Source of the DNA: a virus
Length of the DNA: 64,000 bases
Reading direction: 5' to 3' (one strand)
IMG/VR virus record: IMGVR_UViG_3300036715_002842
Coordinates: 41,576-105,575 of that record
In this document: piece by piece, positions 5,323-38,294 of the stretch
Layout of the letters: each line of letters opens with the position of its first letter
Numbering within the stretch: the stretch's first letter is position 1
Program-made: the position numbers and the translations under genes
Notes under the pieces: generated by a model
Told to the model about the DNA's origin: nothing
Database searches by the model: none
Seen by the model: the letters and a program-made list of their open reading frames with translations, nothing else

Positions 5323-5676
5323 AAGATTTCTCTACCCCCTCTGGGCTATTTGCCCGGATAATTGAGTCCAAGATCCATCAAGGATGACTCGATGCTGGTC
5401 ACCACCTTAGGCACTTTCAGAAACCCGTGTAAAATAACGGAGATTCGAGGTACCACGGGTCAAATGGTGGTTGGTATTCTATCCGTTAAGAGTATTACTT
5501 TCTACCATTTGAGGAAAGTTCTAAAGGGCAATTTTCTGGGTGACTTTGCATTTTCAAAGTTCCTCAAAAAATTGAGCCTTGATTTTTCTTCGAGACCCGG
5601 TAAATTAGTAGTATATGTTCCCCAGAGGCCCCGGCTCCCCCACCTTCTCTACTGCCCCACTTTCTAGAGGTGCTTA

Positions 5677-6768
5677 ATGCGCTTGCTGATGTTCCGGTCT
5701 CAACTCACACCTCAGGGGATAACATTCGTACCTCGTGAGGGTGAGCCGGCGCGATATAGCATCTTCCAGGACATCCACGACTACATCAAGATGAGCACTG
5801 AGAGTCTTCTCCATCCTCAGGCGGCGGTCGATCTGGTCATGGACAGCATCGCTCTACGTATCCTGCACCTGCCTCAGGCTCCGGACCACAAGGAGATCTA
5901 CAGCAGTCAGTGCACCATCCGTAAGACCAATGCGGATACCGGGAACGAGTGGTATGAGAAGACCCGGGACTTCAAAAACAAGTTTATGTATTGCATCAAC
6001 TTCAACCGTATATCTCGTGCAGCGGAAGAAGCGATTGACAATCCGAAGAAGACCCTCATCTCTATTGCCAGCTTCTGGGATGTTTCCGAATACGAACTGG
6101 AACAGATTCTGAACTGGTATTACGAAACCGGACAGCAGCTCTACGGTGCCAAGGACCAGCGCCCTGAGTGGTGGGGGCAGCGCATTGATGAGGTTGCCCG
6201 CTACAAGGCTCTGGAATTTGAGTTCGTCAAGCAGGTGAACAAGAAACTGGCTACCCCGGCCTTCAGCTACCTCGTGGACTTCTACGAGTCCAGAGAATCC
6301 ATCGTCCAGGACTTGATGCGAGAAGCCTGGCGCGCAGTTCTGGATACTTCCCACAAGCCGGAGCTTGATACCCTTCGCATGGGTAAGACCTACATCAATA
6401 CGGTCATCCATCACGTGGCCCAGAGCTACACCAAGCACCATGGGAAGCAGGCTTACAACAAGCAGAACGATACTTACGAGACCATCGAGTTCTCTCTTCT
6501 GAGTGAACCGGACATGGATGAGTCCAAGCACTTCTTCCTGGCCCACGAGGTAAGTGAGTATCACGAAATGGAAGTCTTCCATACCCTCGACAAGGTTCTG
6601 GCTGACAATGAGATGACCCTGGTGCGGGTCCTCACTGGTGATCTGGAGAGTCCGGAATTCGAGAGTTACGCCTCGGGAATGTCCAGTCGTAGGATTGCGG
6701 CCTTCACCTTCTTCAAGGTGGACGCTGAGAACCTGCGGGACAAGTTCGGATACCTGTTCCACAGCTAA
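5677..6768 (+). CDS. Hypothetical protein, possible divergent sigma-70/ECF-like transcription factor
   Basis: ESIVQDLMREAWRAV..TYINTVIHH resembles sigma region 2; LDKVLADNEMTLVRVL resembles the start of region 4. Confidence 0.4.
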   Translation: MRLLMFRSQLTPQGITFVPREGEPARYSIFQDIHDYIKMSTESLLHPQAAVDLVMDSIALRILHLPQAPDHKEIYSSQCTIRKTNADTGNEWYEKTRDFKNKFMYCINFNRISRAAEEAIDNPKKTLISIASFWDVSEYELEQILNWYYETGQQLYGAKDQRPEWWGQRIDEVARYKALEFEFVKQVNKKLATPAFSYLVDFYESRESIVQDLMREAWRAVLDTSHKPELDTLRMGKTYINTVIHHVAQSYTKHHGKQAYNKQNDTYETIEFSLLSEPDMDESKHFFLAHEVSEYHEMEVFHTLDKVLADNEMTLVRVLTGDLESPEFESYASGMSSRRIAAFTFFKVDAENLRDKFGYLFHS

Positions 6769-7251: not shown

Positions 7252-7530
7252 CTAACTAGCGAGCGGCAGCTTTTCAATTTCTGCCATGAATGAAGGTGGG
7301 GTTGTGAAAGCTGCCGCTCGAGGTATCTTAAAGTACGGATCGGTAAATCCGATGGCACCTTCAGAGATGGCATCCTTAATAAGGAACCGTGGAGTGTCCA
7401 GGATGACCAGAGTTTCGTTCTTCCACTCTTCCGGATACTCTAGAACGAACTGAGCAATAGCGTGCCCAGCTTGAGACATCTTTTGTCCGAAAGAAAGTTT
7501 TTCGTCGATCAGAATGTAGAGCTTAGTCAT
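7252..7530 (-). CDS. Pth2-like peptidyl-tRNA hydrolase
   Basis: MTKLYILIDEKLSFGQKMSQAGHA...W...TLVIL matches the Pth2-family N-terminal pattern (G.K..Q..HA); start at 7530. Confidence 0.7.
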   Translation of the reverse strand: MTKLYILIDEKLSFGQKMSQAGHAIAQFVLEYPEEWKNETLVILDTPRFLIKDAISEGAIGFTDPYFKIPRAAAFTTPPSFMAEIEKLPLAS

Positions 7531-7924: not shown

Positions 7925-8098
7925 TCAGATTGTGGGATGGTAATCCTTTCCAGCAATCTTTACCCAGTTTGACATTCCAATCAAGAGGTGACCGTGCTGA
8001 GAAGGGGAGAAGGGGACTAGCCCCTTCCCATCACAGTGCAGACTTGGCTTAGACGATTCGAAGACCGTCCGGCAACCAAGACAGATCCACTCTTTCAT
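7925..8098 (-). CDS. Small 57-aa protein with CxxC (MKEWICLGCRTVFES...)
   Basis: Translated by hand; ATG overlaps the TGA of the upstream gene (TGATG); below the ORF-track size cut-off. Confidence 0.55.
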   Translation of the reverse strand: MKEWICLGCRTVFESSKPSLHCDGKGLVPFSPSQHGHLLIGMSNWVKIAGKDYHPTI

Positions 8099-8544
8099 CA
8101 CTTCCCCTCTTGCATGTCGAGGAGGATCTGCGTACTCAGACCCTGCTGGAAGTCCAGAGTCTCCTTACGGAAACGCTTCTTCTCTTCCCAAGCGGCGATG
8201 TCCTCAGCAATCATTTCCTTCCATTCCGCGAGCTGGCGCTGAGAATAGTGGTCGGCTTGCTTGTGGAAGTAAGAACGGCTGGGATTCCGGTTGGGCTCGA
8301 TCTGCTCGAGGGTACGTCCACGGAGAAGGCAGTAAGCGATGTGCTTCGCTCTCCAATTCTGATCGTCGCAGCTGTAGAAGTTCTCGGGCTTGATTGCCAG
8401 GAGCTTGGCGCGAAGTTCTTCCTGTTGCTCCCCGGGAATGGAAGGCTTGAAGGTGGCATCGTAACGCCGTTCCCAATGCCTGCAAGCCACTTCGTGCTTG
8501 AGCTCTGCCTTGATGGTTGCGATCAGTTCTTTGTAAGTGGTCAT
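8098..8544 (-). CDS. Hypothetical protein (RAKHIAYCLLRGRTLEQIE motif); first gene of the amber-gated operon
   Basis: 148-aa ORF; its SD GGAGA lies inside a hairpin. Confidence 0.75.
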   Translation of the reverse strand: MTTYKELIATIKAELKHEVACRHWERRYDATFKPSIPGEQQEELRAKLLAIKPENFYSCDDQNWRAKHIAYCLLRGRTLEQIEPNRNPSRSYFHKQADHYSQRQLAEWKEMIAEDIAAWEEKKRFRKETLDFQQGLSTQILLDMQEGK

Positions 8545-8546
8545 TA

Positions 8547-8598
8547 GATTCTCCGAAATTTGAAAAGTTTGAGAAAAGGTTTTCGAATTTGGAGAATC
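8547..8598 (-). promoter_or_regulatory. RBS-sequestering hairpin for the gene at 8544
   Basis: GATTCTCCAAATTCGAAAA pairs with TTTTCAAATTTCGGAGAATC (one bulge, one mismatch); the right arm contains SD GGAGA 5 nt before the ATG. Confidence 0.75.
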
Positions 8599-8623
8599 AC
8601 TAAGGTGGGCGGTTCTACGTCAT
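8597..8623 (-). promoter_or_regulatory. Minigene 2: ATG ACG TAG AAC CGC CCA CCT TAG TGA (M-T-amber-N-R-P-P-stop)
   Basis: Strong SD AAGGAG 6 nt upstream; the read-through extension ends at the base of the RBS hairpin. Confidence 0.7.
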
Positions 8624-8634
8624 CGTAGGCTCCT

Positions 8635-8754
8635 TTACGAACAGAAAAAACCCAACAGAGGCTGCTGGGCAGCTGATCCGTTGGGGAGGAAGTGTTCTTG
8701 CGAACACAGATTTTTGTGGTGTGGCAAAACTTTGGAGCCGCGAATCTACTTCAT
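8635..8754 (-). promoter_or_regulatory. Minigene 1: ATG AAG TAG, with a 39-codon read-through frame spanning a terminator
   Basis: SD GAGGG upstream; after the TAG the frame stays open to TAA at 8635-8637, which overlaps the SD of minigene 2. Confidence 0.65.
8645..8685 (-). terminator. Intrinsic terminator (attenuator) in the leader
   Basis: CCCAACGGA-TCA-GCTGC-CCA-GCAGC-C-TCTGTTGGG followed by TTTTTT. Confidence 0.8.
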
Positions 8755-8767
8755 GGTCTTGTCCCTC

Positions 8768-8805
8768 AAATGGTTGGTACTACCCAAAATGGTTGGTACT
8801 ACCCA
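8768..8805. repeat. Perfect 19-bp tandem duplication (AAATGGTTGGTACTACCCA x2) at the predicted transcription start
   Basis: Copies at 8768-8786 and 8787-8805. Confidence 0.9.
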
Positions 8806-8812
8806 AAGACTA

Positions 8813-8841
8813 ATTATAACCCCGGATCTTTCGTTTGCCAA
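8813..8841 (-). promoter_or_regulatory. Sigma70-type promoter TTGGCA-N17-TATAAT
   Basis: -35 at 8836-8841 and -10 at 8813-8818 on the minus strand. Confidence 0.75.
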
Positions 8842-8905: not shown

Positions 8906-9943
8906 TCATGGCTGACTCCCAGAAGTAAGGACGTTTCGTTCCATGGGCTGACCGTGCATCCAGTGTTTCACGGTCTGGACATGGGAGGCCCGGACGAACT
9001 TCCCAACCTTGACCCGAAACTCAGAGAAGGGGAATGCCTCGGCCACCCGGACCACATAGCCCTCCTGGCGATCCCATTTGCGCTTGTCCCACAAGGCGCG
9101 GATGGCCTTTTCGTCATAGATTCCGTCGTAGAGTACGGGAACAGGAGTAATCCCCAACAGGGCAAACCATTCCAGCGTCTCGTCCCAGGGGAGGCAGATG
9201 TTCCGGTCATCCCAGATGGAGAACCCAAGCAGGTAGCTGGGAAGGCCGTCGTAGCCGATGGAATGCTTGGCGTAGAGGTTTTCGCCGCACACTCGCCATC
9301 CTTCCGGGATGTCCATACGGATCTGGGACCAGAATTGCTTGACCCAGTTCCGGCTGGGGTGACTGCGCCCATCCAGGCTCCGAGCGTGGATGTGATCCTG
9401 GTAGAGGGACGTGTTTTCTCCGTCCATTTTCTCGGTAACGATCACCCGCTTCCCTGCGAGGGCTGCGGTGGAATCCATCATTCGGTCGTCGTCGTTCATT
9501 CCCTCCGACCATGGCAGATGGTGGGTCCTGGGATACTTGACCCAGTGGGTGAATAGGCTAAGAACGCCGCCAATGGCGAGCACCTTCTGAACGCTCTCGT
9601 CATGGAACAACTCCCCCTTGAGGCGCTGGCCATTGGGGAGGATGGGATTCCCCCACTTGTCATAAGGCTGGTCCGCGTAGAGATGTGGTGGGAGCAAAGA
9701 TTTGGTGATCCCGCAGGCGTTACGAACATCCTCGGTGGAGATCTCTGTGGTTTCGCACCGCATGTGGTGATCGCCACAAACGGAAGCGCCGTTGTCGAGG
9801 TAGTAGCCTCCGTCCGGCCACAGTCTGCGTTCCAGGATGTGGTGGGCGTCCGCAGCAGGTTCCCCGCAGAAGACACAGCGGCCCTTGGCGCGAGCAAACA
9901 CGGCCTCGCGGAAAGCGTCTCTGGTTAGCAGCAGGGCGTTCAT
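8906..9943 (-). CDS. HNH-domain / Rnl2-type RNA ligase fusion protein
   Basis: N-terminal CxxC...AHHI...NG..VC..HH (HNH); C-terminal YPRTHHLPWS, TEKMDGEN (motif I), GENLY, EGYVVR, KFVR; visibly higher GC than its flanks. Confidence 0.85.
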   Translation of the reverse strand: MNALLLTRDAFREAVFARAKGRCVFCGEPAADAHHILERRLWPDGGYYLDNGASVCGDHHMRCETTEISTEDVRNACGITKSLLPPHLYADQPYDKWGNPILPNGQRLKGELFHDESVQKVLAIGGVLSLFTHWVKYPRTHHLPWSEGMNDDDRMMDSTAALAGKRVIVTEKMDGENTSLYQDHIHARSLDGRSHPSRNWVKQFWSQIRMDIPEGWRVCGENLYAKHSIGYDGLPSYLLGFSIWDDRNICLPWDETLEWFALLGITPVPVLYDGIYDEKAIRALWDKRKWDRQEGYVVRVAEAFPFSEFRVKVGKFVRASHVQTVKHWMHGQPMERNVLTSGSQP

Positions 9944-10064
9944 TGGGTGGTTCCTTTCGAGTTGGATTCATTACATTTCAGACGCTACCGTATGGCGTAC
10001 CTGTGGGTGTATCCCCTTGAATTCTGGCTCGTAGTGTTTCAAAGCGGTTTCACTCTTAAAAAAG

Positions 10065-10136
10065 TCCCCACGGTGGTAGTCGAAACCACGACACAGTGTT
10101 TTAGAAGCACCTGCTCTACCGTTGAGCTACGTGGGG
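10065..10136 (-). tRNA. tRNA with CUA anticodon (amber suppressor); CCA end not encoded
   Basis: CCCCACG-TA-GCTC-AACGGTA-GAGC-A-GGTGC-TT[CTA]AA-ACACT-GTGTC-GTGGT-TTCGACT-ACCAC-CGTGGGG-A folds as a cloverleaf; has a C31:A39 mismatch and T53-A61. Confidence 0.8.
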
Positions 10137-10155: not shown

Positions 10156-10183
10156 AGAATAACCTTGAATTTTGAATTGTCAA
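10156..10183 (-). promoter_or_regulatory. Promoter for the tRNA: TTGACA-N16-TATTCT
   Basis: Perfect -35; the -10 lies about 20 nt upstream of the tRNA 5' end. Confidence 0.6.
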
Positions 10184-10250: not shown

Positions 10251-11240
10251 CTATTCATCTGAGTGCGCCAGGGCAGCGAACAGGCACCCCTTCGCGATAG
10301 CCTTCAGAGGATCCTCAGCACGAACTACCTTGCCAATCTTGATGGGGAGGTTCTGCGCCTTGAGAGCCTCTTCGAACAGTTCGATGAACCCGCCGGGAAG
10401 AGAGGTTCCACCTGCGACTGCGATCTTGGGCGGCTTCTGGAAGTCTGGTAGCTTCGCCATGCCAAGGAGTTTGTCCTTGATTTGCTTGGCTACGTACTCC
10501 AACATCGCCTTGTAGTAGTACGAAATGGCTTCCTCGGTCTGATCCTTGGGCTTGCGGAGATCAATGATCCCCTCCTTTGCGAGCATAGCCTTGACCGTGG
10601 AGATACCCAGAGAGGTGGAAACGTTCTTGTCAATGTAGTCACCGGAACGGGCTACGGAGAAGTTGAAGGCTTCCACACTCAATTGTGCGCAGCAGACATT
10701 GCACATGCCAGCGCCCCACGAAACACCAAAGCCAGAAAGATTGTCCTCGAGGAGTTCACTGTAAATGACCGACAGACCTTCATTGAGTGGTACTGGAGTG
10801 TAACCCATGTCGGTTAGGATCTTGTTGAACACATTCGAGTGGTAAACTGCATTGAACTCCTGATCGACTGGATCCCCTGGGACGGAGTAGACCACCTTTT
10901 CTTTCTTGGTGGCAGGAGCCCCAAGGGACTCTTTGATGATCGCCTGGATGATTGGCAGCGCCTTAATCTCATGGGGATTGAGAACACCTTGCGACATAGG
11001 TCGCTTGGGCTCACTGTTGAAAGCGCTAGCGAGCTCCAGTGCCTGCTGACCTAAAGCAGAAATTTCCCCCTCAAGTTCCACGTAAGGTGCACCCACCTTC
11101 TTGAGCATCGATTTTACGAAGGGGGATTTCTCTACTGGTACGAAGATATTGCGGAAAGCTTTGTACTCGAAGCTCTCCCCATCTGCACCAACCCTCGCAG
11201 CTACGATATTTCCAGTTCCCAAATCTAGTCCACAGGGCAT
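10251..11240 (-). CDS. Actin-fold ATPase, volactin-like
   Basis: GLDLGTGNIV (phosphate 1), RPMSQG, P.DPVD, PLNEGLSVIYSEL, SWGAGMCNV (phosphate 2), SVARSGDYID, AGGTS (adenosine). Confidence 0.8.
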   Translation of the reverse strand: MPCGLDLGTGNIVAARVGADGESFEYKAFRNIFVPVEKSPFVKSMLKKVGAPYVELEGEISALGQQALELASAFNSEPKRPMSQGVLNPHEIKALPIIQAIIKESLGAPATKKEKVVYSVPGDPVDQEFNAVYHSNVFNKILTDMGYTPVPLNEGLSVIYSELLEDNLSGFGVSWGAGMCNVCCAQLSVEAFNFSVARSGDYIDKNVSTSLGISTVKAMLAKEGIIDLRKPKDQTEEAISYYYKAMLEYVAKQIKDKLLGMAKLPDFQKPPKIAVAGGTSLPGGFIELFEEALKAQNLPIKIGKVVRAEDPLKAIAKGCLFAALAHSDE

Positions 11241-36029: not shown

Positions 36030-38294
36030 ATGAAGCTTGAAGTAGATAGCTCCGAGATCCTGAAGTCGGACCTTGGTGTCCAGCAGGCGTTCACGATCAA
36101 GGCGACCGCGAAAGCCTTCTCCATTCTGAGCTCCGGCCTTTATTCAGACAAGATCTGGGCCATTCTCCGGGAACTGTGTGCCAACGCCCAGGATTCCCAC
36201 ATCGAAGCCAAGAAGAGTCACGTACCCTTTGAGATCCATCTCCCAGATCACTGGGACAGCCATTTCTGGGTCGAGGATTTCGGTATGGGCCTCTCCCACG
36301 AGGATGTGCTTCATCTCTATACCACCTACTTCGAGAGCACCCGGAACAAGTCGAACGATTTCACTGGCGCCCTGGGCCTCGGCAGTAAGAGCCCTTTCAG
36401 CTATACCGACTGCTTCAGCGTTACCAGCACTTACGAAGGTGTGGTGCGCAACTATTCTGCGTACCTGGATGAAACCGGTTGTCCCAACATCACGCTGATG
36501 TCCGAACAACCTGCCGAGACCGGCAAGGTGAATGGCGTCAAGGTTGCCTTCGTCACTCGGCAAGGGGATCAGGATTCCTTCCGCACCAAGATCTGTGGTG
36601 TGCTGGAGTTCTTCGACAACTACAAGATCATCAACCCTCAGCCCCCTCAGATCTGGCGTCAGAGTTACGGCTTCATCAATACCAACTGGGCTCTGCGGGA
36701 GCGCGATCGGGTGAAGAACTATTCCGGCGCCCGCATCATCCAGGGTCCCATCGCCTATCCCCTGAACATCAAGAACTGCACCGATCCGGTTTACAAGGTT
36801 CTCTCCCAGCTCCCGATCGACATCTTCGTCAACATTGGTGACCTGGACATCGCGGCTTCCCGCGAAGAACTCTCCTACACCAAGGGGACCATCGACAAGA
36901 TCCTTGTTCTCCTGGCCGAGATCAAGGATGTGATCGTTGCCGAGCTGGAATCCAGCCTGACTCCCTGCAAGACTGACTGGGAGCGCGTGCAGCAGGTGGT
37001 TCGCACCAAGTTCCGCAACCAGGTTTACCAGCGCGTTTACGAGAACTTCAGCTCCGACATCTTCAAGGGTGGATTCCGGTTCGCCAGCGGTGAACTGAAG
37101 GTCAATCTGAACTCCTACGATTTCCTGACCGTTCGAGGCATCACTTCGCAGGAACGGAAGTTCGTCTCCTACACCAAGAACAACTCCAAGGCAACCATCA
37201 AGATCAATACCAACAGTGAAGTCCTCTTCATCTACAACGATGTCAAGGTCAACGGTGAGCAGATCCTCAAGGATTTCCTGAAGACCAAGCGCGGCACGAT
37301 GATCTACTTCGCTTCTCCCAGCGGTCTGTGGACCTGGGAAGAGATCAAGACCCCGAAGCCGACCATTGAGAACCCCAAGGCAGTGGTGGTCACTCGCAAA
37401 CGGGTTGCTCTTGGAACCCCCGATGATTCCTATAAGCAGTTCGAAGAGTTCATCGATGCCTGCGGCAACCCAGAGTTCATCAAGCTGTCCTCCATCCTGG
37501 CTGGCGTGCCAAAGGCCGTGGTGGTTCGCGAGAAGATCAATGCCTACCTGTTCAACAAGCACGGTTACGGCACTGCCGATCGTTGGAAGGAAAAGCAGGA
37601 CTTCGACATCGCGGTCCCCAAGTATTACGTGGAAATGTCCTACTTCCGCCCGATCAAGCTCGGTGCCAGTTCCAGTGACGATACCTACACCATGGATCAG
37701 TTCGTGGAACACCGGAAGCTCCTGATCGACCTGGGCCTAATCACTTCCGACACCGAGATCTATGGTATTCCCCGCTCGACCATGAAGAAGTCCATCGAGA
37801 AGGATCCGAACTGGATCCCCTTCTTCCCTGCCATGAAGGACAAGGCGATCAAGACCTTCGAGCCTCTGGAACAGGATTGGCATCTGGCGATCCTCGTCAG
37901 CAATGTCGAGGATTTCTACAAGAACTACGCGCAGGACAAGAGCCTCGAGAATATGGTTCCATGCGCTTTCAAGACCTACCTCGAGACCATCAAGACCCAC
38001 CTGAAGGTCAAGGCGCCGAAGCACAACTGGAACACCGTACTGCGCTTCTACGATTACCAGTTCAAGCCTTCCGTACACAAGGATCTGAAGACTCCCCAGT
38101 TCGTCAAGCTCTATCCCCTGTTCTACTGTAACATCAACAGCTACAACACCACGGACACTTACCGGAACCTGACTCACTACGTGAACCTGATCGAAGCCGA
38201 GAACGAAGTCAAGCGCGCCGAAGAAGAGATCACCAAGATGTTCAAGATTCCGGTTATTCCTGCTGACGGCGTAAATTCCACCTTGACAGTTTAA
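36030..38294 (+). CDS. rIIA: rIIA-like protein (GHKL ATPase N-terminus)
   Basis: LSSGLYSDK..ILRELCANAQDSH, EDFGMGL, YFESTR, GALGLGSKSPFSYT, SREELSY. Confidence 0.85.
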   Translation: MKLEVDSSEILKSDLGVQQAFTIKATAKAFSILSSGLYSDKIWAILRELCANAQDSHIEAKKSHVPFEIHLPDHWDSHFWVEDFGMGLSHEDVLHLYTTYFESTRNKSNDFTGALGLGSKSPFSYTDCFSVTSTYEGVVRNYSAYLDETGCPNITLMSEQPAETGKVNGVKVAFVTRQGDQDSFRTKICGVLEFFDNYKIINPQPPQIWRQSYGFINTNWALRERDRVKNYSGARIIQGPIAYPLNIKNCTDPVYKVLSQLPIDIFVNIGDLDIAASREELSYTKGTIDKILVLLAEIKDVIVAELESSLTPCKTDWERVQQVVRTKFRNQVYQRVYENFSSDIFKGGFRFASGELKVNLNSYDFLTVRGITSQERKFVSYTKNNSKATIKINTNSEVLFIYNDVKVNGEQILKDFLKTKRGTMIYFASPSGLWTWEEIKTPKPTIENPKAVVVTRKRVALGTPDDSYKQFEEFIDACGNPEFIKLSSILAGVPKAVVVREKINAYLFNKHGYGTADRWKEKQDFDIAVPKYYVEMSYFRPIKLGASSSDDTYTMDQFVEHRKLLIDLGLITSDTEIYGIPRSTMKKSIEKDPNWIPFFPAMKDKAIKTFEPLEQDWHLAILVSNVEDFYKNYAQDKSLENMVPCAFKTYLETIKTHLKVKAPKHNWNTVLRFYDYQFKPSVHKDLKTPQFVKLYPLFYCNINSYNTTDTYRNLTHYVNLIEAENEVKRAEEEITKMFKIPVIPADGVNSTLTV

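What the first reader, a model, noticed from the sequence alone, without database searches (positions are those of the whole stretch)
8635..8754. Gate 1: ATG-AAG-TAG minigene whose read-through frame crosses an intrinsic terminator
After the UAG the frame stays open for 36 more sense codons (IRGSKVLPHHKNLCSQEHFLPNGSAAQQPLLGFFCS). It runs through the whole hairpin and U-tract and stops at a TAA that overlaps the AAGGAG SD of minigene 2. Normal termination at codon 3 would leave the terminator free to fold. Read-through would let a coupled ribosome block it and be handed on to minigene 2. This would be attenuation that senses stop-codon efficiency rather than amino-acid supply.
Basis: partly seen in the sequence, partly recalled or inferred. 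Interest (0 to 1): 0.8.

Follow-up and report, generated by a model that had tools for sequence, protein, structure and literature searches.

The report
Extra stop-codon-sensing leader crossing a terminator
This large phage carries a second, altered copy of a tiny stop-codon-containing leader gene that many big phages place next to their own stop-reading tRNA. Only here does the copy's read-through frame cross a transcription terminator, which may be a further switch or only a remnant.

Summary
**Observation: confirmed, on the minus strand.**
- An RBS and ATG-AAG-TAG lie at 8754-8746.
- 36 open codons follow, across a strong intrinsic terminator (8685-8645, -21.3 kcal/mol, U6).
- The frame ends at TAA 8637-8635, which touches the AAGGAG of minigene 2.

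**The minigene is not chance.**
- Its first 16 nt are identical to the leader M-K-UAG-I-R-E-P-P-stop of a distant phage (L142).
- I checked the family myself. 74 of 80 loci with a Pth2-like gene hold a suppressor tRNA. At least 40 hold an M-x-stop-[I/V]..PP-stop leader before a helical-protein gene and the Pth2-like gene.
- This scan has already reported that cassette on other genomes.
- Minigene 2 is the canonical leader here. Minigene 1 is an upstream copy that lost its Pro-Pro-stop.

**The terminator-blocking step is unsupported.**
- None of 35 other family loci has such a terminator.
- All three frames are open across it, so the open frame carries no weight.
- The hairpin starts only 70 nt after the ATG, and published work finds terminators that close to a start mostly escape ribosome repression.

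**Verdict.** The UAG-sensing logic is plausible. A remnant, or a terminator under other control, remains a serious rival. No transcript data or close relatives could be fetched.

The parts
10064..10136 (-). Amber-suppressor tRNA gene (anticodon CUA). It has its own promoter, TTGACA-16-TATTCT, beginning at 10183.
   Evidence: ARAGORN; Rfam tRNA, 57.7 bits; promoter.
8906..9943 (-). HNH-RNA ligase gene lying between the tRNA and the leader region.
   Evidence: Pfam RNA_ligase 3e-32; PHROG 24030 3e-141.
8813..8841 (-). Sigma-70-like promoter, TTGGCA-17-TATAAT.
   Evidence: 11 of 12 consensus positions, intergenic and in the right orientation.
8768..8805 (-). Two perfect tandem 19-nt repeats (TGGGTAGTACCAACCATTT) at about +1 to +38 of the predicted transcript.
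   Evidence: the repeat finder family D1. No other copy in the window or in IMG/VR.
8763..8767 (-). RBS (GAGGG) of minigene 1. It is predicted to pair with UCCUCC at 8692-8687 once that stretch has been transcribed.
   Evidence: Read from the sequence. Folds. Unpaired probability 0.13 in the finished leader. Homologous to the RBS region of L142, L144 and L141.
8746..8754 (-). Minigene 1, ATG AAG TAG. It is a paralogous copy of the family's amber leader.
   Evidence: ATGAAGTAGATTCGCG is identical at 16 of 16 positions to the L142/L145 leader.
8638..8745 (-). Read-through frame of 36 sense codons. It has no Pro-Pro-stop ending.
   Evidence: Translation. All three frames are open here. Weak likeness to the L141/L072 leader: HHKNLC against HRKNSC, P about 0.03.
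8645..8685 (-). Intrinsic terminator: stem-loop 8685-8651 followed by U6 at 8650-8645.
   Evidence: Scan. -21.3 kcal/mol. Unique among 36 family loci.
8635..8637 (-). TAA that ends the read-through frame. It overlaps the AAGGAG RBS of minigene 2 by one base, and it lies 8 nt beyond the U-tract.
8597..8635 (-). Minigene 2, the canonical family leader: AAGGAG-N6-ATG ACG TAG AAC CGC CCA CCT TAG TGA, which reads M T * N R P P * stop.
   Evidence: It fits the family pattern seen in at least 40 loci.
8547..8598 (-). Hairpin that hides the RBS (GGAG) of the 148-aa gene.
   Evidence: Inverted repeat I1. -14 kcal/mol. The RBS unpaired probability rises from 0.21 to 0.53 only when a ribosome footprint is placed at the end of minigene 2.
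8098..8544 (-). Gene for a 148-aa all-helical protein. This is the family's 'helical protein', with the core KHIAYCLLRGRTLEQIEP.
   Evidence: Homologues. 48% identity over 40 aa (L142) and 56 aa (L141) of the core. AlphaFold2 pLDDT 91.5 with no PDB fold match.
7252..7530 (-). Pth2-like (peptidyl-tRNA-hydrolase-2-like) gene, the last gene of the operon.
   Evidence: ESM Atlas features 0.91; structure TM 0.82 and 0.74 to clusters carrying PTH2. No Pfam hit. 57 relatives by HMMER.

Best explanation
**What it is.** ATG-AAG-TAG is a real regulatory mini-ORF. It is an upstream, diverged copy of the short stop-codon-containing leader that many large phages place in front of a helical-protein and Pth2-like operon beside their own suppressor tRNA.

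- The canonical copy in this phage is minigene 2 (M-T-UAG-N-R-P-P-UAG-UGA). It abuts the hairpin that hides the RBS of the 148-aa gene.
- Copy 1 kept its RBS, ATG, AAG, UAG, ATT and CGC but lost the Pro-Pro-stop.
- A ribosome that gets past its UAG therefore runs 36 codons further. It crosses a strong intrinsic terminator that only this phage has, and it stops on the RBS of minigene 2.

**Most likely working.**
1. The promoter at 8841 makes mostly short RNAs that end near 8645.
2. A ribosome can load on copy 1 only while the RNA is nascent, because the RBS is later paired with UCCUCC at 8692-8687.
3. Without suppression the ribosome leaves at UAG.
4. When the phage tRNA(CUA) is active the ribosome continues. 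It can then hinder the terminator hairpin, hand ribosomes on to minigene 2, or do both.
5. The result is a first UAG-suppression-dependent gate in front of the conserved translational gate.

**Shown:** the sequence features, the homology and the family context.

**Inferred:** that the promoter and the terminator work, that copy 1 is translated, that its UAG is suppressed, and that the ribosome has any effect on termination.
For: **The minigene itself**
- Two RBS-preceded ATG-NNN-TAG strings lie in one 260-nt leader, against 4 in the whole genome. Two ATG-NNN-TAG strings occurred in only 1 of 5000 shuffles.
- 16 of 16 nt are identical to the L142 leader and the RBS region is alike. The adjacent helical proteins align over only 40-56 residues, at 48% identity. 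That argues for selection on the core of copy 1.
- Copy 1 has ATT (Ile) after UAG, as have most of the leaders I listed, which carry Ile or Val there.

**The family**
- 74 of 80 Pth2-like loci carry a suppressor tRNA on the same strand.
- At least 40 have an M-x-stop-..PP-stop leader.
- In the three loci with a UUA-anticodon tRNA that I inspected by eye, the internal stop of the leader is TAA.

**This locus**
- The tRNA(CUA) gene lies 1.3 kb upstream with its own promoter.
- The terminator lies between the only visible promoter and the operon.
- RBS 1 is masked in the finished RNA (unpaired probability 0.13), so it would be open only co-transcriptionally.
- The read-through stop sits 8 nt past the U-tract, on RBS 2.
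- The distance from ATG to terminator is much as I recall it for the pyrBI leader (from memory, not checked). That leader's ORF spans its attenuator, and Li et al. name it as the exception that relies on pausing.
Against: - No other family locus (35 distinct loci) has a comparable terminator near its leader. The arrangement therefore rests on one genome.
- All three frames are open across the terminator, so no frame-specific constraint is visible.
- Copy 1 lacks the family's Pro-Pro-stop and does not abut an RBS-hiding hairpin. It may be a decaying duplicate.
- Timing is tight. The ribosome would have to initiate, win against release factor at UAG and translate about 19 codons while the polymerase moves about 110 nt. 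Li et al. 2016 measured only about 10% relief for a terminator 30 bp after a start codon, and argue that ribosomes catch up only after 100-200 nt.
- No clear antiterminator or pause signal was found.
- On terminated RNA, read-through ribosomes would meet no stop codon, because the TAA lies beyond the 3' end. That is costly.
- TAG is the normal stop of 33 of 119 genes, so how strongly the tRNA suppresses is unknown.
Confidence: 0.37

Rival explanations
1. Remnant. A partial duplication or an insertion split or copied the leader. Copy 1 lost its Pro-Pro-stop and now does nothing. The terminator is a leaky, unregulated damper, or the end of the upstream tRNA and RNA-ligase unit. Minigene 2 alone does the sensing.
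For: - Minigene 2 is a complete family leader in the canonical position.
- Copy 1 lacks the PP-stop.
- The 5' halves of the two copies are alike: 15 of 24 positions around the ATG.
- The terminator and the tandem leader are absent from 35 other loci.
- All frames are open, so the long frame needs no selection.
- The RNA ligase gene next door looks like an inserted HNH-carrying gene, in a stretch of higher G+C than its flanks.
Against: - RBS, ATG, AAG, TAG, ATT and CGC are intact and identical to a distant relative. An old relic should have decayed.
- A strong terminator with no promoter after it would choke a conserved operon unless something relieves it.
Confidence: 0.3
2. The terminator is controlled by something other than a ribosome, or the promoter-to-terminator unit is a small RNA gene of about 160 nt. 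In the first case a phage protein or RNA acts on the two 19-nt repeats at the 5' end of the transcript, as lambda N/nut, lambda Q at pR'-tR', or HK022 put do. In either case the minigene inside is incidental to termination.
For: - The order promoter, then about 160 nt of structured RNA, then a strong terminator, then genes is the classic layout of phage antitermination, as I recall it.
- Two perfect tandem repeats lie at +1 to +38.
- The leader folds better than shuffles, z = -3.4.
- UUGGGUAG in each repeat can pair with CUGCCCAG at the top of the terminator in a nascent-RNA fold.
- The other promoters of this phage have short leaders.
Against: - No Rfam family matches.
- I saw no boxA-like element when reading the leader by eye, and I ran no scan for one.
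- No N- or Q-like gene turned up among the ten neighbouring proteins scanned.
- The repeats occur nowhere else in the window or in IMG/VR.
- This reading does not explain the conserved amber minigene core.
Confidence: 0.2
3. A bar-type minigene, as in phage lambda. The two-codon ORFs release peptidyl-tRNA (fMet-Lys-tRNA, fMet-Thr-tRNA). In this way they report on, or load, peptidyl-tRNA hydrolase activity, which the operon's Pth2-like product then handles. UAG serves only as a stop.
For: - These are two-codon ORFs with an RBS and a stop, like the lambda bar minigenes. Minigene toxicity through tRNA sequestration and Pth is documented (PMC2490762).
- A Pth2-like gene ends the operon.
Against: - In the family the internal stop follows the anticodon of the neighbouring tRNA: TAA with UUA tRNAs.
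- Conserved codons and a PP-stop follow the internal stop. This shows that what lies after the stop matters, meaning the stop is read through.
Confidence: 0.06
4. Chance: an ATG-NNN-TAG string with no meaning in an ordinary intergenic region.
For: - A single ATG-NNN-TAG appears in 1.7% of shuffled leaders.
- The RBS is only a 4-5-nt match.
Against: - 16 of 16 nt are identical to the L142 leader, with a similar RBS region.
- A second such minigene lies 131 nt away.
- The family context.
Confidence: 0.03

Closest known systems
Stop-containing leader of the phage cassette 'suppressor tRNA + helical protein + Pth2-like'. I found no published description. This scan reported it on other genomes, and I re-derived it here from IMG/VR loci L058-L146. 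Pth2-like relatives also occur in the published Lak megaphages.
   Same: - RBS, ATG, one codon, UAG, then an Ile codon.
- 16 of 16 nt identical to the L142 leader.
- Lies upstream of the same operon, with a tRNA(CUA) gene nearby.
   Different: - No Pro-Pro-stop ending.
- Its stop abuts the RBS of a second leader, not an RBS-hiding hairpin.
- An intrinsic terminator lies inside its read-through frame.
- It is the second leader of the operon.
pyrBI-type leader-ORF transcription attenuation in E. coli, in which a coupled ribosome translating through the attenuator prevents the terminator hairpin. Details are from established knowledge. Li et al. (PMC4824070) cite it as the exception that relies on pausing.
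   Same: - A short leader ORF whose frame spans an intrinsic terminator placed between the promoter and the structural genes.
- A similar distance from start codon to terminator (as I recall it for pyrBI).
   Different: - The input would be suppression of a UAG at codon 3, not UTP-dependent pausing.
- No pause sites are known here.
- Nothing has been tested experimentally.
Controls that sense how a stop codon is decoded: prfB (RF2) autoregulation at an in-frame UGA, and tnaC, where a ribosome held at the stop codon blocks Rho. Both are from established knowledge.
   Same: Gene expression depends on what happens at a stop codon in a short upstream frame.
   Different: - prfB uses a +1 frameshift and tnaC uses Rho and tryptophan.
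- Neither uses a suppressor tRNA or an intrinsic terminator inside a read-through frame.
Translational attenuation by leader or arrest peptides: ermC, cat and SecM, and RAPP/RGPP-type arrest motifs.
   Same: Minigene 2 and most family leaders end in x-P-P-stop on the 5' arm of an RBS-hiding hairpin.
   Different: Copy 1, the finding, has no such motif and no such hairpin.
Lambda bar minigenes (two-codon ORFs that are toxic when Pth is limiting).
   Same: - RBS + ATG + one codon + stop.
- A link to peptidyl-tRNA hydrolase.
   Different: - In the family the stop is matched to a suppressor tRNA.
- The codons after the stop are conserved.
Stop-codon-recoded phages that carry suppressor tRNAs (Borges et al., bioRxiv 10.1101/2021.08.26.457843), and standard-code jumbo phages whose suppressor tRNAs have no known target (XacN1, PMC5852040).
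   Same: A phage-encoded tRNA(CUA).
   Different: - This phage is not recoded: TAG ends 33 of 119 genes.
- The UAG codons that look like targets sit in leaders, not in structural genes.

Membership tests
Stop-containing leader of the suppressor-tRNA / Pth2-like phage cassette | RBS, start codon, one to a few codons, then an in-frame stop that matches the anticodon of the neighbouring suppressor tRNA. | tested here: met
   GAGGG-N8-ATG AAG TAG. tRNA(CUA) at 10136-10064. Family pattern. TAA goes with UUA tRNAs.
Stop-containing leader of the suppressor-tRNA / Pth2-like phage cassette | An Ile or Val codon directly after the internal stop. | tested here: met
   ATT follows TAG. Most of the leaders listed have Ile or Val there.
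Stop-containing leader of the suppressor-tRNA / Pth2-like phage cassette | The read-through part is short and ends in x-Pro-Pro (or RGP/RSP) followed by a stop. | tested here: not met
   The read-through is IRGSKV... for 36 codons with no Pro-Pro. One relative, L141/L072, also lacks PP.
Stop-containing leader of the suppressor-tRNA / Pth2-like phage cassette | The final stop abuts a hairpin that hides the RBS of the helical-protein gene. | tested here: not met
   TAA 8637-8635 abuts the RBS of minigene 2. The RBS-hiding hairpin (8598-8547) follows minigene 2.
Stop-containing leader of the suppressor-tRNA / Pth2-like phage cassette | Lies upstream of a helical-protein gene and a Pth2-like gene, with a suppressor tRNA within a few kb on the same strand. 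| tested here: met
   148-aa helical protein. Pth2-like gene. tRNA. 74 of 80 family loci carry the tRNA.
Stop-containing leader of the suppressor-tRNA / Pth2-like phage cassette | Sequence homology to other leaders of the family. | tested here: met
   16 of 16 nt identical to L142/L145, with a similar RBS region.
pyrBI-type ribosome-mediated transcription attenuation | An intrinsic terminator between the promoter and the structural genes, with the leader ORF running through it. | tested here: met
   The ORF runs through only if the UAG is read through.
pyrBI-type ribosome-mediated transcription attenuation | RNA polymerase pause sites that let the ribosome catch up. | not testable with these tools
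   No pause predictor or transcript data were available. U- and A-rich runs and two small hairpins lie at 8730-8695, which is only suggestive.
pyrBI-type ribosome-mediated transcription attenuation | Termination measurably relieved by translation of the leader. | not testable with these tools
trp/his-type leader-peptide attenuation | A mutually exclusive antiterminator helix that overlaps the 5' arm of the terminator. | tested here: inconclusive
   Only an 8-bp pairing with 2 G-U pairs (UUGGGUAG with CUGCCCAG) appears, in one nascent-RNA fold. It is far weaker than the -21.3 kcal/mol terminator.
Known RNA families (riboswitches, T-box, known phage RNAs) | A match to an Rfam covariance model. 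| tested here: not met
   No match at gathering score. Only two chance-level matches at E 3-5.
Lambda bar minigenes | A two-codon ORF with an RBS and a stop. | tested here: met
Lambda bar minigenes | Peptidyl-tRNA release and toxicity in a Pth-deficient host. | not testable with these tools
   This needs an experiment.

The most novel reading that the evidence does not exclude
A natural transcription attenuator whose input is stop-codon suppression. A ribosome that the phage's own tRNA(CUA) carries past the UAG at codon 3 follows RNA polymerase across the terminator and prevents termination. It is then handed to a second UAG-gated leader that unmasks the RBS of the operon. Together these make a two-stage AND gate that ties a Pth2-like operon to suppressor-tRNA activity.
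Probability: 0.2. Interest if true: 0.85.

Novelty: new variant of a known kind. Interest (0 to 1): 0.6.

Why it matters
Standard-code jumbo phages often carry suppressor tRNAs for which no target is known. The XacN1 paper says so outright (PMC5852040).

The leader family gives these tRNAs conserved natural targets. This locus adds a case in which the same UAG logic may have been moved from translation to transcription termination.

If that is true, it would be the first attenuator that reads stop-codon suppression, and a compact natural part for sensing suppressor-tRNA or release-factor activity. If it is false, the locus still shows how such leaders duplicate and decay.

Simple reporter constructs can decide between these outcomes.

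Tried and rejected

**Searches that found nothing**
- Relatives of the 148-aa protein: viral, metagenome and genome collections, by protein, by alignment and by DNA pattern. Also five related jumbo-phage records.
- The 19-nt repeat in IMG/VR.
- Close relatives of the Pth2-like protein by single sequence.
- Rfam: nothing in the leader.
- Pfam and NCBIfam: nothing for the small operon proteins.
- The AlphaFold2 model of the 148-aa protein had no PDB fold match.

**Leads that gave no signal**
- The RNA-ligase neighbourhoods L002-L055 are not syntenic. The tRNA(CUA) in L042 has an unrelated neighbour.
- The amino-acid identity of the tRNA could not be inferred by likeness to other tRNAs.
- I tested whether TAG-ending genes carry more back-up stops or avoid a following A. 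There was no signal, and A after TAG is common genome-wide: 15 of 33 genes.
- I looked for genes split by in-frame TAG (recoding). There was no clear case.
- The likeness between the two minigene regions is weak: 9 of 18 free positions, P = 0.03.
- The likeness of the read-through peptide to the L141 leader is also weak, P about 0.03.

Full report
**Where the finding lies.** It is on the minus strand of a virus record of 105.6 kb (one search states it is a virus record). The RNA ligase has relatives in 300-500-kb phages, so the record is probably part of a jumbo phage. Reading the minus strand, the order is:
- a tRNA with anticodon CUA (10136-10064) behind its own promoter
- an HNH-RNA ligase gene (9943-8906)
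- a sigma-70-like promoter, TTGGCA-17-TATAAT (8841-8813)
- two perfect 19-nt tandem repeats (8805-8768)
- GAGGG-N8-ATG AAG TAG (8754-8746)
- an intrinsic terminator (8685-8645)
- AAGGAG-N6-ATG ACG TAG AAC CGC CCA CCT TAG TGA (8635-8597)
- a 52-nt hairpin that hides the RBS of a 148-aa gene (8598-8547)
- the operon: the 148-aa gene, two small ORFs, and a 92-aa ORF (7530-7252)

The ESM Atlas places the 92-aa ORF with viral PTH2-like hydrolases (features 0.91; TM 0.82 and 0.74). Pfam does not detect it.

- After the UAG the frame is open for 36 codons and ends at TAA 8637-8635. The last base of that TAA begins the AAGGAG of minigene 2.
- The terminator is canonical: 9 + 5 pairs, -21.3 kcal/mol, U6.
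- ATG-NNN-TAG is rare in shuffled leaders: at least once in 1.7%, twice in 0.02%.
- Only four RBS-preceded ATG-NNN-TAG strings exist in the whole genome, and two are here.
- The open frame itself means nothing. The stretch 8745-8638 has no stop triplet in any frame. Under local dinucleotide shuffles a given frame is open 79% of the time.

**Is the phage recoded? No.** TAG ends 33 of 119 ORF-based gene calls, among them genes of 1565 and 1065 codons. Long ORFs already cover 94% of the window under the standard code. TAG-ending genes show no excess of back-up stops. The suppressor tRNA therefore lacks an obvious genomic target. The authors of jumbo phage XacN1 reported the same puzzle (PMC5852040).

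**The family.** Earlier notes of this scan described, on other genomes, a cassette of suppressor tRNA, tiny stop-containing leader, helical protein and Pth2-like gene. I treated that as a lead and tested it as follows.
- HMMER found 57 relatives of the Pth2-like protein. An alignment of 42 sequences (the window's protein plus 41 of those) retrieved 80 IMG/VR loci.
- 74 of the 80 carry a suppressor tRNA on the same strand within 3.5 kb: 68 CUA and 8 UUA.
- A strict pattern found an M-x-stop-..-Pro-Pro-stop leader 330-520 nt upstream of the Pth2-like gene in 40 loci. Looser variants occur in others.
- Each leader I inspected is followed by a short spacer and a gene for a helical protein that starts like the 148-aa protein.
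- In the three loci with UUA tRNAs that I inspected, the internal stop of the leader is TAA.
- Two further distant phages, reached through the RNA-ligase records, show the same layout.
- Minigene 2 of this window (M T * N R P P * stop) is a plain member. A thermodynamic model agrees with the idea: the RBS of the 148-aa gene is 21% unpaired, both free and with a ribosome at the first UAG, and 53% unpaired with a ribosome at the end of the leader.

**What minigene 1 is.** A pattern for the conserved core of the helical protein found the nearest cassettes, L140-L146. Their leaders are:
- M-K-UAG-I-R-E-P-P-stop (L142/L145)
- M-K-K-UAG-M-L-K-P-P-stop (L144/L146)
- M-K-UAG-ITKLAVFSRLHRKNSCFNTS-stop (L141, from the same contig as L072)
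- M-T-UAG-S-A-R-G-P-stop (L140)

The evidence that minigene 1 belongs with them:
- It shares ATGAAGTAGATTCGCG, 16 of 16 nt, with L142, and a similar RBS region.
- Further on it weakly resembles the L141 leader, P about 0.03.
- The neighbouring helical proteins align over only 40-56 residues, at 48% identity. The identical leader core therefore points to selection rather than recent common descent.

Minigene 1 is thus a second copy of the family leader that has lost its Pro-Pro-stop. Leaders with two suppressible stops in series are common in the family (for example L095, L093, L127, L137 and L059). Two separate leaders are not.

**What cannot be shown.** The step that makes this finding special is a read-through ribosome blocking the terminator.
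- In 35 other distinct family loci there is no comparable terminator from 300 nt before to 220 nt after the leader start. The best hits are -8 to -14 kcal/mol with poor T-runs.
- The frame is not specifically kept open.
- I found no convincing antiterminator.
- The hairpin begins 70 nt and the U-tract ends 110 nt after the ATG. Li et al. measured only about 10% relief by translation for a terminator 30 bp after a start codon. They argue that the first ribosome catches the polymerase only after 100-200 nt, so terminators in the first 100 bp escape ribosome repression unless pausing intervenes, as in pyrBI (PMC4824070).
- On RNA that ends at 8645, a read-through ribosome would find no stop codon. 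The phage does encode a tmRNA.

**Points in favour of a co-transcriptional gate.**
- RBS 1 is predicted to be masked in the finished RNA by UCCUCC at 8692-8687 (unpaired probability 0.13). It would be free only in the nascent chain.
- No promoter is visible after the terminator, so the operon depends on read-through of the terminator.
- The other promoters of this phage are a conserved family, TTGACA-atttaattgtcaaggg-TATATT, with leaders of about 10-40 nt. This long, structured leader (z = -3.4) is therefore exceptional.

**Verdict.**
- The minigene is a genuine member, of an atypical form, of a conserved and apparently unpublished family of leaders that sense suppressor tRNAs. This scan has already met that family on other DNA.
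- The specific claim of ribosome-mediated antitermination is possible but rests on a single genome with no transcript data. I give it about 0.2-0.25.
- I give about 0.37 to any UAG-dependent role of copy 1, whether by hindering the terminator or by handing ribosomes to minigene 2.
- I give about 0.3 to a functionless remnant and about 0.2 to a terminator or small RNA under other control.

Two tools that could have decided more were unavailable: the look-up of encoding contigs and the look-up of sequencing runs.

Noticed in passing
window 8597-8635 and 8547-8598 (minus strand): Minigene 2 (M T * N R P P * stop) followed by the RBS-hiding hairpin is a clear member of the conserved leader family. 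A small hairpin, CUACG-AUGA-CGUAG (-5 kcal/mol), holds its AUG in the loop.
   Followed up: yes
L060-L139 (IMG/VR loci): 74 of 80 loci that encode a Pth2-like protein carry a suppressor tRNA (68 CUA, 8 UUA) on the same strand within 3.5 kb. In most it lies directly after the Pth2-like gene. In the three UUA loci I inspected, the internal stop of the leader is TAA.
   Followed up: yes
phage records MK250015-MK250029 (Prevotella Lak megaphages): The only matches to the Pth2-like protein in the published phage collection are the Lak megaphages (E 6e-6 to 3e-5). Their records carry no annotation. I did not look for leaders there.
   Followed up: no
whole genome; in the window at 38283, 59127 and 59401 (+ strand): A promoter family recurs six times: ccTTGACAatttaattgtcaagggTATATT, with a palindrome in the spacer, each followed by a leader of roughly 10-40 nt. 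The promoter of the tRNA(CUA) gene (minus strand, starting at 10183) is a diverged copy.
   Followed up: partly
genome C1:32052-36872 (outside the window): An array of 13 tRNA genes with a phage-encoded tmRNA (tag AENDRFLQAA). The tRNA(CUA) gene stands alone, 15 kb away.
   Followed up: no
window 10251-11240 (minus strand): A phage gene for an actin-like protein that matches Pfam Volactin over its full length (2e-79).
   Followed up: no
window 5362-6768 (+ strand): A 101-codon ORF ends in TAG-A. Three codons later a 363-codon ORF follows in the same frame. Amber read-through would fuse them. This could be chance (1 in 3).
   Followed up: no
window 8733-8738 and 8628-8633 (minus strand): GGCTCC (codons 6-7 of the read-through frame) is the inverted repeat of GGAGCC in the RBS of minigene 2. 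The 5' halves of the two minigenes are alike (ATGA.GTAGA..CGC). This would fit an insertion or duplication of about 130 nt, or a long-range pairing that hides RBS 2.
   Followed up: partly
L141, L142, L144, L145, L146: In the nearest cassettes, ATG-AAG-(AAA)-TAG forms the last codons and the stop of a long upstream ORF that ends ...DIMK. There the suppressible UAG is also a gene's natural stop.
   Followed up: partly
window 8098-8544 (minus strand): The 148-aa protein gives a confident all-helical model (pLDDT 91.5) with no match among solved structures. Its function is unknown, although it always sits between the leader and the Pth2-like gene.
   Followed up: partly
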